From Escherichia coli O157:H7 (GTDB taxonomy: Bacteria; Pseudomonadota; Gammaproteobacteria; Enterobacterales; Enterobacteriaceae): DNA of 64,000 nucleotides. Of this stretch, positions 3,038-23,703 are shown in pieces; within the stretch, counting starts at the first letter, position 1; the number at the start of each line of letters is the position of its first letter. Location: NCBI RefSeq assembly GCF_013167455.1, contig NZ_CP038328.1; one strand, written 5' to 3'. The notes beneath the pieces were generated by a model. That model did no database searches. It saw only the letters and a program-made list of their open reading frames with translations, and was not told where the DNA came from. The translations under genes were made by a program, and so were the position numbers.

Positions 3038-4258
3038 GTGGTTGCTGAAAACCAGCCTGGGCACATTGATCAAATAAAGCAGACCAACGCGGGCGCGGTT
3101 TATCGCCTGATTGATCAGCTTGGTCCAGTCTCGCGTATCGATCTTTCCCGTCTGGCGCAGCTGGCTCCTGCCAGTATCACTAAAATTGTCCGTGAGATGC
3201 TCGAAGCACACCTGGTGCAAGAGCTGGAAATCAAAGAAGCGGGGAACCGTGGCCGTCCGGCGGTGGGGCTGGTGGTTGAAACTGAAGCCTGGCACTATCT
3301 TTCTCTGCGCATTAGTCGCGGGGAGATTTTCCTTGCTCTGCGCGATCTGAGCAGCAAACTGGTGGTGGAAGAGTCGCAGGAACTGGCGTTAAAAGATGAC
3401 TCGCCATTGCTGGATCGTATCATTTCCCATATCGATCAGTTTTTTATCCGCCACCAGAAAAAACTTGAGCGTCTAACTTCGATTGCCATAACCCTGCCGG
3501 GAATTATTGATACGGAAAATGGCATTGTACATCGCATGCCGTTCTACGAGGATGTAAAAGAGATGCCGCTCGGCGAGGCTCTGGAGCAGCATACCGGCGT
3601 TCCGGTTTATATTCAGCATGATATCAGCGCATGGACGATGGCAGAGGCCTTGTTTGGTGCCTCACGCGGGGCGCGCGATGTGATTCAGGTGGTTATCGAT
3701 CACAACGTGGGGGCGGGCGTCATTACCGATGGTCATCTGCTACACGCAGGCAGCAGTAGCCTCGTGGAAATAGGTCACACACAGGTAGACCCATATGGTA
3801 AACGCTGTTATTGCGGGAACCACGGCTGCCTCGAAACCATCGCCAGTGTGGACAGTATTCTTGAGCTGGCACAGCTGCGTCTCAATCAATCCATGAGCTC
3901 GATGTTACATGGGCAACCGTTAACCGTGGACTCATTGTGTCAGGCGGCATTGCGCGGCGATCTGCTGGCAAAAGACATCATTACCGGGGTGGGCGCGCAT
4001 GTAGGACGCATTCTTGCCATCATGGTGAATTTATTTAACCCACAAAAAATACTGATTGGCTCACCGTTAAGTAAAGCGGCAGATATCCTCTTCCCGGTCA
4101 TCTCAGATAGCATCCGTCAGCAGGCCCTTCCTGCGTATAGTCAGCACATTAGCGTTGAGAGTACTCAGTTTTCTAACCAGGGCACGATGGCAGGGGCTGC
4201 GCTGGTAAAAGACGCGATGTATAACGGTTCTTTGTTGATTCGTCTGTTGCAGGGTTAA
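3038..4258 (+). CDS. mlc: Mlc (DgsA), ROK/NagC-family global repressor of PTS genes
   Basis: 406-aa ORF beginning MVAENQPGHIDQIKQTNAGAVYRLIDQ..., matching recalled Mlc; C-terminal zinc motif CYCGNHGCLE. Confidence 0.9.
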   Translation: MVAENQPGHIDQIKQTNAGAVYRLIDQLGPVSRIDLSRLAQLAPASITKIVREMLEAHLVQELEIKEAGNRGRPAVGLVVETEAWHYLSLRISRGEIFLALRDLSSKLVVEESQELALKDDSPLLDRIISHIDQFFIRHQKKLERLTSIAITLPGIIDTENGIVHRMPFYEDVKEMPLGEALEQHTGVPVYIQHDISAWTMAEALFGASRGARDVIQVVIDHNVGAGVITDGHLLHAGSSSLVEIGHTQVDPYGKRCYCGNHGCLETIASVDSILELAQLRLNQSMSSMLHGQPLTVDSLCQAALRGDLLAKDIITGVGAHVGRILAIMVNLFNPQKILIGSPLSKAADILFPVISDSIRQQALPAYSQHISVESTQFSNQGTMAGAALVKDAMYNGSLLIRLLQG

Positions 4259-21365: not shown

Positions 21366-21722
21366 TTACTCGAGAGGAAATTGGTTATGAATACAATCAA
21401 GTTTTCTTGCCCAGAATGTGGTGGCGAAGTCTTTGACACATCCTTTAAGCCGCAGGGCTCTGACAGTTTCGCGGGAGCCATCTGCAAAAATTGTGGTCAC
21501 CTTGTAACTGAAGATGAGTCCTCGCAGTTCGATGACGAAATCGTTGACAATATCTTCGGTGCACTCACCAGAGACTTTCTGAAGTAAAGGCGCATACCGC
21601 TTAGTTACCGCTCTGATAACTCTTACCTGTCCTGCAATGGCGCTGATGTCAATATAAAGCGCCATTGCTGCTTCTTTGCCGATCCCGGGATGCCTTCCAT
21701 TCTGATGTTTGACTTCGCCCAC
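21366..21722 (-). CDS. Hypothetical protein, first gene of the leftward early operon (conflicts with a convergent ORF at 21387..21587)
   Basis: GTG start with GAGGG RBS just downstream of the operator-like region at 21903-21958; same orientation as dicB. Confidence 0.3.
   Translation of the reverse strand: MGEVKHQNGRHPGIGKEAAMALYIDISAIAGQVRVIRAVTKRYAPLLQKVSGECTEDIVNDFVIELRGLIFSYKVTTIFADGSRETVRALRLKGCVKDFATTFWARKLDCIHNQFPLE
21387..21587 (+). CDS. Alternative overlapping ORF: 66-aa zinc-ribbon-like protein (CPECGG...CKNCGH)
   Basis: ATG at 21387 with AGAGGAAA RBS 6 nt upstream; two CxxC pairs; antisense to the early operon, so only one of the two overlapping ORFs is likely real. Confidence 0.3.
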   Translation: MNTIKFSCPECGGEVFDTSFKPQGSDSFAGAICKNCGHLVTEDESSQFDDEIVDNIFGALTRDFLK

Positions 21723-21902
21723 TGAGAAACCCTCTGTTTCCCCTTAACGCCGGGGTAGCGGAACAAAAAACTGCTGCATAGTTATTAAAGTTGAACCCTG
21801 CCGTCATGTTCATACGCCTCGGGCTGGCTACTTAACCCCTGACCACTGCCGGGTAACTCGAAGTATTTCCCTGCGTTCTGTGGGGCGGGGTGGGTTGGTA
21901 TT

Positions 21903-21958
21903 TTTAGTTTAATAAACATTAAACTTAAGTCAAGTAAAAACTAAACCGCGGGACATAA
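21903..21958. promoter_or_regulatory. Operator-like cluster (TTTAGT / ACTAAAC half-sites) for the leftward dicB-type early promoter
   Basis: Shares half-site motifs with the repressor-cro intergenic region; lies in a 295-bp ORF-free gap. Confidence 0.4.
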
Positions 21959-22017
21959 CAAACACAACGCTTTTGATAAAGTCGTTGCGGTTGTTATGTT
22001 TCTATTGGTAGTGAAAG

Positions 22018-22296
22018 TTAGGGAAACTGGCGTCTTGCGTGGATCACGTTTACTACTTCAACGCTTGATGTTGTTACGCGGTATAGAATTATATAGTTAG
22101 GGTGGGCTACAATCTCACGCAAGCCAGGTACTCTGTCGCTTGGTGGGTATAAATACGGATGTTCGGATAACGGCAGCACACAACCCCTTAATCGCTGCCA
22201 TAAGCGTTCAGCCGCATCTATGTCGAAACGAGCAATATAACTAGTTATATCATCTAGGTCGGTATCTGCGCTTTCAAGCCATAACACGGGTAACAT
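22018..22296 (-). CDS. ParE/RelE-superfamily type II toxin
   Basis: About 93 aa from MLPVLWLESADTD... to ...EIVAHPNYIILYRVTTSSVEVVNVIHARRQFP, a typical ParE/RelE C-terminus; start overlaps the stop of the upstream small ORF. Confidence 0.6.
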   Translation of the reverse strand: MLPVLWLESADTDLDDITSYIARFDIDAAERLWQRLRGCVLPLSEHPYLYPPSDRVPGLREIVAHPNYIILYRVTTSSVEVVNVIHARRQFP

Positions 22297-22297
22297 T

Positions 22298-22489
22298 TTA
22301 CTGCTTGCTCCGTTCCTTGCGCATCTTAGCAAAGCGTTCTGCCATTCTGCGCTCAACTTCGTCATGGGGAATTGCTGGGCGCGGATCTGCAAGGCTCGTT
22401 GCTACTTTCGCACGCAGCCATTCGTTGTAACTGTTTTCTTGTTCAATGGTTTCAAATTCAGAAACCATTGGTGAAAGGGCTCTATTCAT
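22298..22489 (-). CDS. Putative antitoxin (ParD-like) paired with the ParE-like toxin
   Basis: Small acidic/basic protein MNRALSPMVSEFETIEQENSYNEWLRAKVATSLADPRPAIPHDEVERRMAERFAKMRKE; stop is 1-2 nt from the toxin start. Confidence 0.5.
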   Translation of the reverse strand: MNRALSPMVSEFETIEQENSYNEWLRAKVATSLADPRPAIPHDEVERRMAERFAKMRKERSKQ

Positions 22490-22509
22490 GTTTCCTCCGG
22501 TTTTATAAC

Positions 22510-22881
22510 TCAGGCGCGGCGGCATTTTTGCGCCGCAATCCATCTCGCTATGAGATCTTCCATTGATTCTTTTTTCTGCTTTAACTCGCTGATTATCTGG
22601 CGTTGCTCATCCTCAGGGAAGGCTGAAAAAATCTGCAATAATTCCAGTTGATTAGACGTTAACCCTGCATGTGGTGGAGAACCCCCCGGTTGTTCTGCGT
22701 ATTCCGCATCCAGATACCCTTCCGGCATCCCGTATGTTTGCTCTATTCTTCTGGCAGCCTTTTCTCCAAACGAGGCTCTCCCACTCATTAGTTGAGATAG
22801 GTAGCTCTTCTCTTTGGGTGGCAGAGTTTTATCTTTAAACCACTCCTTGAGACGTAAACGGCGAATTTCTTTTTTTTGCAT
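22510..22881 (-). CDS. dicA: DicA-like (P22 C2 / lambda cI analog) prophage repressor with XRE-type HTH
   Basis: Architecture parallels recalled DicA (C-terminal ...LTSNQLELLQIFSAFPEDEQRQII... vs DicA LSPKELELLELFNALPESEQ); divergent from the cro-like gene. Confidence 0.65.
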   Translation of the reverse strand: MQKKEIRRLRLKEWFKDKTLPPKEKSYLSQLMSGRASFGEKAARRIEQTYGMPEGYLDAEYAEQPGGSPPHAGLTSNQLELLQIFSAFPEDEQRQIISELKQKKESMEDLIARWIAAQKCRRA

Positions 22882-22893
22882 GTGGTAATTATC

Positions 22894-22968
22894 TTTAGTA
22901 ATCACTAAACAAGCAAATACTTGACTTAATGGTTTATTAAACACTAAACTCGCAAAAAAACACTAAAC
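22894..22968. promoter_or_regulatory. Repressor/cro intergenic operator-promoter region with three CACTAAAC-containing sites
   Basis: CACTAAAC at 22903-22910, 22942-22949 and 22961-22968; palindromic TTTAGT-N4-ACTAAA at 22894-22909; TTGACT -35-like hexamer at 22921-22926. Confidence 0.5.
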
Positions 22969-22978
22969 CGAGGAAGGT

Positions 22979-23281
22979 ATGACATTAAAAGAGTTTATTA
23001 AATCATTAAGGGTTGGTGATGCTAAGAAATTCGCGGCCAGACTTGGTGTATCGCCATCTTACTTATCGCAAATGGCGTCTGGACGAACAGCTATATCTCC
23101 AACCCGCGCCCTTATGATCGAATCTGCGACGGAAGGCCAAGTAAGTAGGGCGGAGCTACGACCCCATGATTGGGAGCTTATTTGGCCTGAGTATGCGAGC
23201 GGCATTCGTTTGGGGCAAACACATGTAGTTCATGCTGAAGGTGATTGTAGTGCATGCTTATCTGATGGAGTTGATTCATGA
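22979..23281 (+). CDS. Cro-like (DicC/YdaS-like) HTH regulator
   Basis: N-terminal HTH (ARLGVSPSYLSQMASGRTAISPTRALMIESAT); first rightward gene across from the repressor. Confidence 0.6.
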   Translation: MTLKEFIKSLRVGDAKKFAARLGVSPSYLSQMASGRTAISPTRALMIESATEGQVSRAELRPHDWELIWPEYASGIRLGQTHVVHAEGDCSACLSDGVDS

Positions 23282-23703
23282 AAATCAAGCATGAACACAT
23301 CCGCATGGCGATGAATGTCTGGGCGCATCCGGACGGCGAAAAAGTACCGGCTGCGAAAATTACCAAAGCGTATTTCGAGCTGGGAATGACGTTCCCGGAA
23401 CTGTATGACGACAGCCATCCGGAAGCCCTGGCCCGTAATACCCAGAAAATTTTCCGTTGGCTGGATAAAGACACCCCTGATGCTGTTGAAAAAATGCAGG
23501 CTCTGTTACCGGCGATCGAAAAGGCGATGCCGCCTTTGCTGGTGGCCCGTATGCGCAGCCACAGTTCTGAATATTACCGTGAGATCGTCGAACGGAGGGA
23601 TCGGCTGGTGAAGGATGTCGATGATTTTGTTGCGTCAGCGGTTGTTTTGTATGACCAGATGAATCGCGGCGGCCCGGCAGGGAATGCTGTGGTGATGCAC
23701 TAA
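23278..23703 (+). CDS. YdaT-like / CII-like phage regulatory protein
   Basis: 141-aa protein following cro with ATGA overlap; position and size match Rac YdaT; family assignment from memory. Confidence 0.45.
   Translation: MKIKHEHIRMAMNVWAHPDGEKVPAAKITKAYFELGMTFPELYDDSHPEALARNTQKIFRWLDKDTPDAVEKMQALLPAIEKAMPPLLVARMRSHSSEYYREIVERRDRLVKDVDDFVASAVVLYDQMNRGGPAGNAVVMH

What the first reader, a model, noticed from the sequence alone, without database searches (positions are those of the whole stretch)
21903..22968. Two operator clusters sharing TTTAGT / ACTAAAC half-sites bracket the repressor-TA block
The same half-site motif occurs three times in the repressor-cro intergenic region and again about 1 kb leftward in an ORF-free gap. 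This fits a DicA-like repressor controlling both the cro promoter and the leftward dicB-type operon, and places the TA pair inside the repressed unit.
Basis: partly seen in the sequence, partly recalled or inferred. Interest (0 to 1): 0.4.

Follow-up and report, generated by a model that had tools for sequence, protein, structure and literature searches.

The report
Known prophage operators OL and OR
The two motif clusters are the left and right operator sets of the E. coli O157:H7 prophage CP-933P/Sp12 immunity switch, which was tested experimentally on this same DNA in 2021, so the finding is correct but already known.

Summary
Four of the five exact ACTAAAC copies in 64 kb lie in two gaps without genes. 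Three are in the 97-bp paaR2–ydaS gap and one, with an inverted TTTAGT, lies about 1 kb to the left. Each cluster overlaps a promoter with identical hexamers (TTGACT/TAAACT): PR faces right and PL faces left. The window is 100% identical to O157:H7 Sakai. Jurenas et al. 2021 (mBio, PMC8630535) ran gel shifts and footprints with PaaR2 and YdaS on exactly 22882–22978. They also showed about 100-fold repression of a PL reporter carrying exactly 21900–22017. PaaR2 resembles DicA only in its C-terminal 48 residues. The toxin-antitoxin pair is co-transcribed with the repressor and is expressed in both switch states; it is regulated, not silenced. A paralogous locus with a different DNA-binding domain carries a different motif (AAGTGT) at both clusters. 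Novelty: already known.

Side result: the "ORF-free gap" also encodes a conserved, structured RNA at the 5' end of the PL transcript (21785–21902, minus strand). It is supported by compensatory base changes, has no credible Rfam match, and occurs in about 69% of complete E. coli genomes. Its function is unknown.

The parts
22893..22968 (.). OR operator cluster. Four 18-bp sites spaced 19-20 bp apart: IR1 22893-22910 CTTTAGTAATCACTAAAC (near-perfect palindrome), IR2 22912-22929 (degenerate), IR3 22932-22949 GTTTATTAAACACTAAAC, IR4 22951-22968 (right half only).
   Evidence: [quoted passage not shown] The published gel-shift fragment (primers FL1/FL2) is exactly 22882-22978.
22921..22950 (+). 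PR933P promoter: -35 TTGACT (22921-22926), 18-bp spacer, -10 TAAACT (22945-22950). It drives ydaS-ydaT. IR3 overlaps the -10 and IR4 covers the start region.
   Evidence: Promoter scan; coordinates checked; published 5' RACE and gfp reporters.
22888..22916 (-). PRM933P promoter: -35 TTGCTT (22916-22911), 17-bp spacer that lies within IR1 (bases 22894-22910), -10 GATAAT (22893-22888). The transcript starts at the A of the paaR2 ATG (22881), so the mRNA is leaderless.
   Evidence: Read from the sequence. Published 5' RACE, N-terminal sequencing (MQKKE) and mass spectrometry.
22510..22881 (-). paaR2, the CI-analogue repressor (123 aa).
   Evidence: Residues 1-66 are identical to PDB 7NKV/8C3K/8C3L. 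The C-terminal residues 72-119 resemble DicA.
22018..22489 (-). paaA2 antitoxin (22298-22489) and parE2 toxin (22018-22296), co-transcribed with paaR2.
   Evidence: RelB-family antitoxin, 84 bits against a cutoff of 50. RefSeq names the toxin RelE/ParE; its NCBIfam RelE/StbE match is below the cutoff (21.3 bits against 27.9). Published as the paaR2-paaA2-parE2 operon.
21953..21999 (-). Strong imperfect hairpin just after the parE2 stop codon. It is probably the 3' end or terminator of the paaR2-paaA2-parE2 transcript and would insulate PL. It is not a canonical terminator, because the U-rich tract starts 7 nt after the stem.
   Evidence: Inverted repeat I2. Fold energy -25.1 kcal/mol, z = -4.1, 0 of 200 shuffles as stable. 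The role is inferred.
21900..21946 (.). OL operator cluster: 21929-21946 GTCAAGTAAAAACTAAAC (overlaps the -35), 21907-21924 GTTTAATAAACATTAAAC (spacer and -10), 21900-21917 (-10 to +1).
   Evidence: Matrix trained on OR only; inverted repeats I1 and I6. The published PL933P-gfp fragment is exactly 21900-22017 and is repressed about 100-fold by PaaR2 and YdaS.
21906..21933 (-). PL933P promoter: -35 TTGACT (21933-21928), 16-bp spacer, -10 TAAACT (21911-21906). The hexamers are identical to those of PR.
   Evidence: The paper states the identical -35/-10 elements.
21785..21902 (-). Conserved structured RNA core at the 5' end of the PL transcript; not part of the published work. With nt 1 = 21902, helices are P0 (nt 7-11 with 105-109), P2 outer (12-16 with 64-68), P2 inner (20-23 with 57-60) and P1 (29-34 with 50-55). 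A near-invariant 15-nt loop reads AAAUACUUCGAGUUA. A near-invariant stretch reads UAAGUAGCCAGCCYGAGGCRUANGAACAUGAMGGCA.
   Evidence: Conservation. Covariance model R1 finds one hit per locus. Pair counts: 19 of 20 and then 20 of 20 pairs show changes on both sides; at most 1 of 500 shuffles reaches any observed measure; slid controls give at most 51% paired. No credible Rfam match.
21737..21784 (-). The rest of the conserved leader: a variable linker and a possible small hairpin, CCCC-GGCGUUAA-GGGG (21740-21755), just before the first downstream ribosome-binding site.
   Evidence: Alignments. The hairpin was judged by eye only (CCCC/GGGG against CCGC/GCGG) and was not tested formally.
20319..20733 (-). 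dicF small RNA (20682-20733) and dicB (20319-20507), on the same strand as PL and about 1.2 kb downstream of it.
   Evidence: Rfam DicF, 76.7 bits against a gathering score of 48. NCBIfam DicB, 132.7 bits against a cutoff of 100. RefSeq annotation.
22979..23703 (+). ydaS (Cro analogue, 22979-23281) and ydaT (CII analogue, 23278-23703). The published YdaT box TTGATTN6AATCAA lies at 23271-23288.
   Evidence: Published roles (PMC9986795).

Best explanation
The two clusters are OR and OL of the lambda-type immunity switch of prophage CP-933P/Sp12 in E. coli O157:H7.

Operator layout. The operators are 18-bp sites built from GTTTAGTNA-type half-sites. At OR they overlap the divergent promoters PRM (paaR2-paaA2-parE2, leaderless mRNA) and PR (ydaS-ydaT). 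At OL they overlap PL, which has the same -35 and -10 hexamers as PR and points left towards ydfC, dicF and dicB.

How the switch works. PaaR2 (CI analogue) and YdaS (Cro analogue) compete for these sites. Both repress PR and PL. Low PaaR2 stimulates PRM and high PaaR2 represses it. YdaS shuts PRM first. The result is a bistable switch. The toxin-antitoxin pair sits where lambda has rexAB and is made together with the repressor.

Shown elsewhere, on this DNA: binding at OR, repression of PR, PRM and PL, the leaderless mRNA, and bistability.

Inferred: direct occupancy of the individual OL sites, OL-OR looping by the PaaR2 octamer, and that the PL transcript reaches dicF/dicB.
For: The sequence is 100% identical to O157:H7 Sakai (hit H2; annotation). 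The motif is clustered and locally enriched. The matrix trained on OR alone recovers OL as the best outside site in the window. The promoter hexamers are identical and the sites overlap them.

The published gel-shift fragment equals 22882-22978 and the published PL reporter fragment equals 21900-22017.

There is also a natural specificity swap. Locus L127 keeps the leader, the toxin-antitoxin genes and the repressor C-terminal domain (53% identity), but it has an unrelated N-terminal domain. There the TTTAGT/ACTAAA motif is absent from both clusters. AAGTGT appears instead, three times at OR and once at OL.
Against: ACTAAAC is not enriched over the window as a whole. The left patch alone is only modestly significant, about 2%. 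IR2 and the left halves of IR4 and of the OL sites are degenerate.

The paper itself says the exact recognition sequences of PaaR2 and YdaS are not determined, and that a second, overlapping set of pseudosymmetric repeats exists. In the text I read, binding at OL was shown only through a reporter, not by gel shift or footprint.
Confidence: 0.95

Rival explanations
1. The repeated hexamers are chance recurrences in AT-rich non-coding DNA and have no operator function.
For: The window-wide count equals expectation: 5 against 5.12 for ACTAAAC and 19 against 20.8 for ACTAAA. The gaps have only 24-31% G+C.
Against: Local-composition shuffles give 3 of 20000 for OR and 418 of 20000 for OL. Clustering has P about 1e-4 to 1e-5. 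OL is the top outside hit of a matrix trained on OR only. Binding and repression were published for this same DNA. The motif changes together with the repressor's DNA-binding domain in L127.
Confidence: 0.01
2. The recognition unit is not the 18-bp inverted repeat. It is instead the same-orientation (direct) repeat ACACTAAAC, or the overlapping pseudosymmetric 'operators' described in the paper. One protein might read one register and the other protein the other register.
For: All four exact ACTAAAC copies are on the + strand. Only IR1 and IR3 have a good left half. The authors report two overlapping repeat systems and leave the recognition sequence open.
Against: IR1 is a near-perfect palindrome, and the best OL site (21907-21924) is palindromic without any exact ACTAAAC. 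PL is inverted relative to PR, which only symmetric sites tolerate naturally. Helix-turn-helix repressors of this kind usually bind as dimers (general knowledge).
Confidence: 0.2
3. The left cluster is a non-functional relic of an inverted duplication of the PR region, not a working PL/OL.
For: The two regions share a 24-nt inverted repeat at 79% and a perfect 12-mer. The prophage is cryptic.
Against: The 21900-22017 fragment drives gfp and is repressed about 100-fold (mapping). The same layout, repressor then promoter then conserved leader, recurs with five unrelated repressor types.
Confidence: 0.03

Closest known systems
CP-933P / Sp12 immunity region (PaaR2-YdaS-YdaT; PR933P, PRM933P, PL933P), Jurenas et al. 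2021, mBio, PMC8630535
   Same: It is the same DNA. The window is 100% identical to Sakai. The published primers map exactly onto both clusters. The 97-bp gap, the four 18-bp repeats and the identical PL/PR hexamers all match.
   Different: Nothing differs for the operators. The paper does not mention the conserved RNA leader downstream of PL. Its PL reporter stops at 21900 and so excludes the leader.
Phage lambda OL/OR with the CI-Cro switch and rexAB
   Same: The shared features are divergent PR/PRM promoters with several operators, a second operator set at PL, a leaderless repressor mRNA, accessory genes co-transcribed with the repressor, and repressor octamers.
   Different: This locus has four 18-bp sites instead of three 17-bp sites, and an unrelated operator sequence. 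PaaR2 has no S24 self-cleavage domain, so it is not inducible by the SOS response. The accessory genes are a ParE-type toxin-antitoxin pair.
Qin prophage DicA/DicC control of the dicF-dicB operon
   Same: The repressor sits in the same position, and ydfC, dicF and dicB lie downstream on the repressor's strand. The C-terminal domain of PaaR2 resembles that of DicA.
   Different: PaaR2 fails the DicA family cutoff, and its DNA-binding domain is different. The Qin layout is recalled from my own knowledge and was not checked here.
HK022 putL antiterminator RNA (compared with the side finding only)
   Same: The position is the same: the first nucleotides of the PL transcript. HK022 and phages 666R9/Tritos share the PL/OL region as far as the -10. 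After that, HK022 has putL and the other two have this leader.
   Different: There is no sequence or model similarity: R1 finds nothing in HK022. The core is about 110 nt with four helices, against about 70 nt with two stems. There is no second copy downstream of PR. In Arsenophonus the core sits next to a lambda-type nutL and an N-like protein.

Membership tests
Lambdoid immunity switch (OL/OR operators with a CI-type and a Cro-type regulator) | Divergent promoters between the repressor gene and the cro-type gene, overlapped by three or more repeated, roughly palindromic sites | tested here: met
Lambdoid immunity switch (OL/OR operators with a CI-type and a Cro-type regulator) | A second cluster of the same sites overlapping a promoter that reads away from the far end of the repressor operon (PL) | tested here: met
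   The left sites rank 1st, 4th and 6th among sites outside the OR training set.
Lambdoid immunity switch (OL/OR operators with a CI-type and a Cro-type regulator) | The repressor and the Cro-type protein physically bind the sites and repress the promoters | not testable with these tools
   Published for this exact DNA: gel shift and DNase I footprint at OR, and gfp reporters for PR, PRM and PL. Direct binding at OL was not reported in the text I read.
Lambdoid immunity switch (OL/OR operators with a CI-type and a Cro-type regulator) | The operator sequence changes together with the repressor's DNA-binding domain (immunity specificity) | tested here: met
   L127 has a different N-terminal domain and carries AAGTGT at both clusters, with no ACTAAA there.
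Lambda CI / LexA-type (S24) repressors | A C-terminal S24 peptidase domain for RecA-stimulated self-cleavage | tested here: not met
   No Pfam domain has E <= 0.001. The paper states that the domain is absent.
DicA (NCBIfam NF007257) | A full-length match above the curated cutoff of 101 bits | tested here: not met
   28.1 bits, covering residues 72-119 only.
DicA (NCBIfam NF007257) | An N-terminal Xre-type helix-turn-helix domain detectable from sequence | tested here: inconclusive
   Pfam HTH_31 has i-E = 0.14. A solved N-terminal domain structure exists (7NKV), and the paper predicts a helix-turn-helix by HHpred.
PaaR2-PaaA2-ParE2 three-component toxin-antitoxin system | A regulator, a RelB-like antitoxin without a DNA-binding domain, and a ParE toxin, in one operon | tested here: met
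   together with 100% identity to the type locus.
HK022 put RNA (side finding) | Sequence and structure homology to putL/putR | tested here: not met
   R1 finds no hit in HK022 at E <= 1. The alignment shows divergence from the -10 onward.
HK022 put RNA (side finding) | Paired copies downstream of both PL and PR | tested here: not met
   One hit per immunity region, always on the PL side.
HK022 put RNA (side finding) | Suppresses termination in cis by binding RNA polymerase, with no phage protein needed | not testable with these tools
   This needs terminator read-through assays.

The most novel reading that the evidence does not exclude
The operators themselves leave no room for novelty. The novel reading concerns the gap next to OL. 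The first 110 nt or so of the PL transcript (21902 to 21785, minus strand) would be an undescribed class of phage cis-acting RNA.

It has four helices that change in a compensatory way, a near-invariant 15-nt loop and a near-invariant 36-nt stretch. It is found after the PL-type promoter of prophages with at least five unrelated repressor types. Hosts include E. coli, Pectobacterium, Prodigiosinella, Superficieibacter, Arsenophonus and Actinobacillus.

Candidate roles are an element that binds RNA polymerase or Nus factors, a self-cleaving or 5'-end-protecting element, or a ligand sensor for the early-left operon (kil, dicB, recET).
Probability: 0.35. Interest if true: 0.65.

Novelty: already known. 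Interest (0 to 1): 0.15.

Why it matters
For the finding itself there is little at stake. It shows that a reader working from raw sequence can recover a real OL/OR pair, and it gives a clean comparative control (the L127 motif swap) that the paper did not report.

The by-product matters more. It is a widespread RNA, well supported by compensatory base changes, at the very start of the early-left transcript of Rac-like prophages. It has no credible Rfam match, and I found it in none of the papers I could search. It sits upstream of genes that kill or arrest the host (kilR, dicB, dicF). It could therefore explain how these operons are kept silent or switched on.

Tried and rejected
- Window-wide enrichment of ACTAAAC or ACTAAA: none found. 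Only clustering and local-composition tests are informative.
- The test 'any 7-mer repeated three or more times in shuffles of the gap' was uninformative at 8.5%, because the A-runs inflate it.
- Pfam on PaaR2 gave nothing significant.
- A single-sequence fold of the leader was not significant (z = +1.1). RNAalifold on a plain MAFFT alignment recovered only part of the structure. The structure became clear only after alignment guided by the covariance model.
- The idea that the leader is a relative of HK022 put was rejected on sequence and model grounds.
- The idea that it replaces N/nut antitermination in phages lacking N is weakened, because Arsenophonus prophages carry the core together with boxA, boxB and an N-like protein.
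- Literature searches by sequence strings, by Rac/kilR/Rho terms, by nutL terms and for the Pas small RNAs found no description of the leader.
- The Rho-dependent terminator 'trac' of Rac lies inside racR, not in the leader.
- Terminator scans found no convincing intrinsic terminator on the minus strand between PL and dicB.

Full report
**What is in the sequence.** The region 21588–22978 has the layout of a lambdoid immunity region. On the minus strand lie a 123-aa regulator (22510–22881), a 63-aa antitoxin (22298–22489) and a ParE-type toxin (22018–22296). A 97-bp gap follows (22882–22978). On the plus strand come a Cro-like gene (22979–23281) and a YdaT-type gene (23278–23703). To the left of the toxin gene is a 430-bp stretch without annotated genes.

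**The motif.** Exact ACTAAAC occurs at 21940, 22904, 22943 and 22962, and only once more in 64 kb. TTTAGT occurs at 21903 and 22894.

**Is it more than chance?** Over the whole window it is not: 5 copies against 5.12 expected. The placement, however, is far from random.
- Four of five copies within 1022 bp has P of about 7.5e-5, and three within 58 bp has P of about 5e-6.
- Shuffles that keep the local dinucleotide content give three or more copies in the 97-bp gap in 3 of 20000 trials. They give two or more hexamer hits in the 55-bp left patch in 418 of 20000 trials.
- A half-site matrix built from the right cluster only ranks 21907–21924 as the best 18-mer in the window outside its training region. 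Sites 21929–21946 and 21900–21917 rank 6th and 8th.

**Anatomy.**
- The right cluster holds four 18-bp sites spaced 19–20 bp apart (22893–22910, 22912–22929, 22932–22949, 22951–22968).
- PR is TTGACT, 18 bp, TAAACT (22921–22950). IR3 lies over its -10 and IR4 over its start region.
- PRM is TTGCTT, 17 bp, GATAAT on the minus strand. Its spacer lies entirely within IR1, and the ATG of the regulator sits 7 nt after the -10, so the mRNA is leaderless.
- The left cluster overlaps a leftward promoter with the same hexamers: TTGACT, 16 bp, TAAACT (21933–21906). The two promoter regions share a perfect 12-bp inverted repeat.
- A stable hairpin (21953–21999; -25.1 kcal/mol; z = -4.1) lies between the toxin stop codon and the left cluster. 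It probably ends the repressor operon. That role is inferred.

**Identity and prior work.** The stretch is 100% identical to E. coli O157:H7 Sakai. It is the paaR2–paaA2–parE2 / ydaS–ydaT region of prophage CP-933P (Sp12). Jurenas et al. 2021 (mBio, PMC8630535) reported the following:
- 5' RACE for both promoters and proof that paaR2 mRNA is leaderless.
- Gel shifts and DNase I footprints of PaaR2 and YdaS on the 97-bp gap.
- Cross-repression of PR933P and PRM933P.
[quoted passage not shown] It is repressed about 100-fold by PaaR2 and by YdaS.
- Bistability of the switch.

Their primers map exactly. The gel-shift fragment is 22882–22978 and the PL reporter fragment is 21900–22017. The N-terminal domain of PaaR2 is a solved structure (7NKV, 8C3K, 8C3L). 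The YdaT box TTGATTN6AATCAA (PMC9986795) lies at 23271–23288. The finding is therefore already known.

**An independent comparative check.** In E. coli OkiPb01692 (locus L127), the leader, the toxin-antitoxin genes and the C-terminal domain of the repressor are conserved (53% identity over 55 residues). The N-terminal domain is unrelated. There ACTAAA is absent from both clusters. AAGTGT appears instead, three times in the repressor–cro gap and once in the left cluster. The motif changes at both places together with the DNA-binding domain, as expected for operators.

The main claim is supported, with three nuances.
- 'DicA-like': only residues 72–119 match the DicA model, at 28 bits against a cutoff of 101. 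Pfam finds nothing significant. PaaR2 sits where DicA sits and shares its C-terminal domain, but it is not a DicA family member.
- 'dicB-type operon': DicF (76.7 bits) and DicB (132.7 bits) do lie downstream on the PL strand. An oppositely oriented gene (21387–21587) and 1.2 kb separate them from PL. Nobody has shown that the transcript gets that far.
- 'TA pair inside the repressed unit': the pair is bracketed by the operators. It is transcribed with the repressor from PRM, and from PRE when YdaT is present. It is expressed in both switch states. It is regulated, not silenced.

**The rest of the gap.** Bases 21737–21901 match unannotated DNA in 3736 of 5426 complete E. coli genomes. One of these matches is in the K-12 Rac prophage, between racR and ydaG. 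They also match several phages, including one from Actinobacillus at 75% identity. The conserved part always begins right after a PL-type promoter whose operators differ with the repressor type: PaaR2, RacR, a DicA-like protein, an HK022-CI-like protein and an S24-type CI.

**Evidence that this is a structured RNA.** A scan of viral contigs gave 120 loci. A scan of species-representative genomes added Superficieibacter, Pectobacterium, Prodigiosinella and many Arsenophonus copies. I derived a four-helix structure by eye from divergent copies and built a covariance model from the E. coli-type copies.
- The model finds one hit per immunity region. It finds none in HK022 and no second copy in the window.
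- On the model-guided alignments, 19 of 20 pairs (71 distinct sequences) and then 20 of 20 pairs (34 distinct, more diverse sequences) show changes on both sides.
- 85.6% and 87.6% of cells are paired, against 77% and 62% in shuffles. At most 1 of 500 shuffles reaches any observed measure. Sliding the partner columns gives at most 51% paired.
- These alignments are fitted to the structure, which favours it. However, the divergent copies show perfect alternative helices even without gaps. P1 reads GCAAAG/CUUUGC or CACUGAG/CUCAGUG, and P0 reads AACAAC/GUUGUU or CAGCAAC/GUUGCUG.
- G-U pairs point to the PL-direction strand as the RNA.
- Rfam 15 has no credible match, even in a 261-nt search at E <= 10.

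**What the leader might do.** It occupies the position of putL. HK022 and phages 666R9/Tritos share the PL/OL region up to the -10 and then diverge into putL or this leader. Three things argue against a simple put-like role. The RNA is unrelated in sequence, there is no copy on the PR side, and in Arsenophonus the core is followed by a lambda-type boxA (CGCTCTTTAAC), a boxB hairpin (TCGCTGAAAAAGCGA), a lambda-like N-leader hairpin and an N-like protein (phrog_271, E = 3.6e-13). The function is open. The long invariant stretches suggest tertiary structure or a specific partner. The published PL reporter ends at 21900 and so never included this RNA. The published immunity-region clone starts at 21723 and did include it.

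**Verdict.** The mechanism is a known lambda-type switch and the novelty is nil for the operators. The leader RNA is recorded as a side observation that deserves its own follow-up.

Noticed in passing
window 21737-21902, minus strand (core 21785-21902): A conserved, structured RNA lies at the 5' end of the PL transcript. It has four helices supported by compensatory base changes and two near-invariant stretches. It has no credible Rfam match and no annotation. It occurs in 3736 of 5426 complete E. coli genomes, in the K-12 Rac prophage between racR and ydaG, and in Pectobacterium, Prodigiosinella, Superficieibacter, Arsenophonus and an Actinobacillus phage. Its function is unknown.
   Followed up: yes
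L131 2908-2945 and 226-290; ORFs 417-737 and 3116-3436 (Arsenophonus endosymbiont): In Arsenophonus prophages the same RNA core is followed by a lambda-like boxA and boxB (nutL), an N-leader-like hairpin (GGGGTGTGTGA...CACACACCACC) and an N-like antiterminator protein. The core therefore co-exists with N antitermination.
   Followed up: partly
window 22993-23010: A further operator-like 18-mer, GTTTATTAAATCATTAAG, lies inside the first codons of ydaS. It ranks 7th in the window with the matrix trained on OR, and it forms a 21-nt inverted repeat with 22925-22945. It lies outside the 97-bp gel-shift fragment; I did not check it against the footprint fragment.
   Followed up: no
window 21953-21999, minus strand: A very stable imperfect hairpin (-25 kcal/mol, z = -4.1) lies right after the parE2 stop codon and just upstream of OL. 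It is likely the 3' end of the paaR2-paaA2-parE2 transcript. It has no canonical U-tract.
   Followed up: partly
L127 (E. coli OkiPb01692) 2660-2720 and 3670-3785: A paralogous three-gene repressor-antitoxin-toxin locus has a different repressor N-terminal domain and a different operator motif (AAGTGT/ACACTT) at both OL and OR. This is a natural swap of immunity specificity.
   Followed up: yes
window 21366-21722 (minus strand) and 21387-21587 (plus strand): Two overlapping antisense ORFs both match protein families. The 118-aa minus-strand ORF follows the leader with a GAGGG ribosome-binding site and matches phrog_21318 (E = 4e-67). The plus-strand ECs_2282 zinc-binding protein is the one annotated by RefSeq (NCBIfam 57 bits). 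Which of them is expressed is unclear.
   Followed up: no
window 20475-20684, minus strand: A sub-threshold Rfam match to the small RNA STnc100 (39.7 bits against a gathering score of 47) lies between dicF and dicB.
   Followed up: no
window 23271-23288: A perfect copy of the published YdaT box, TTGATTCATGAAAATCAA, spans the ydaS stop codon and the ydaT start codon (the PRE region). It is the only copy in the window.
   Followed up: partly
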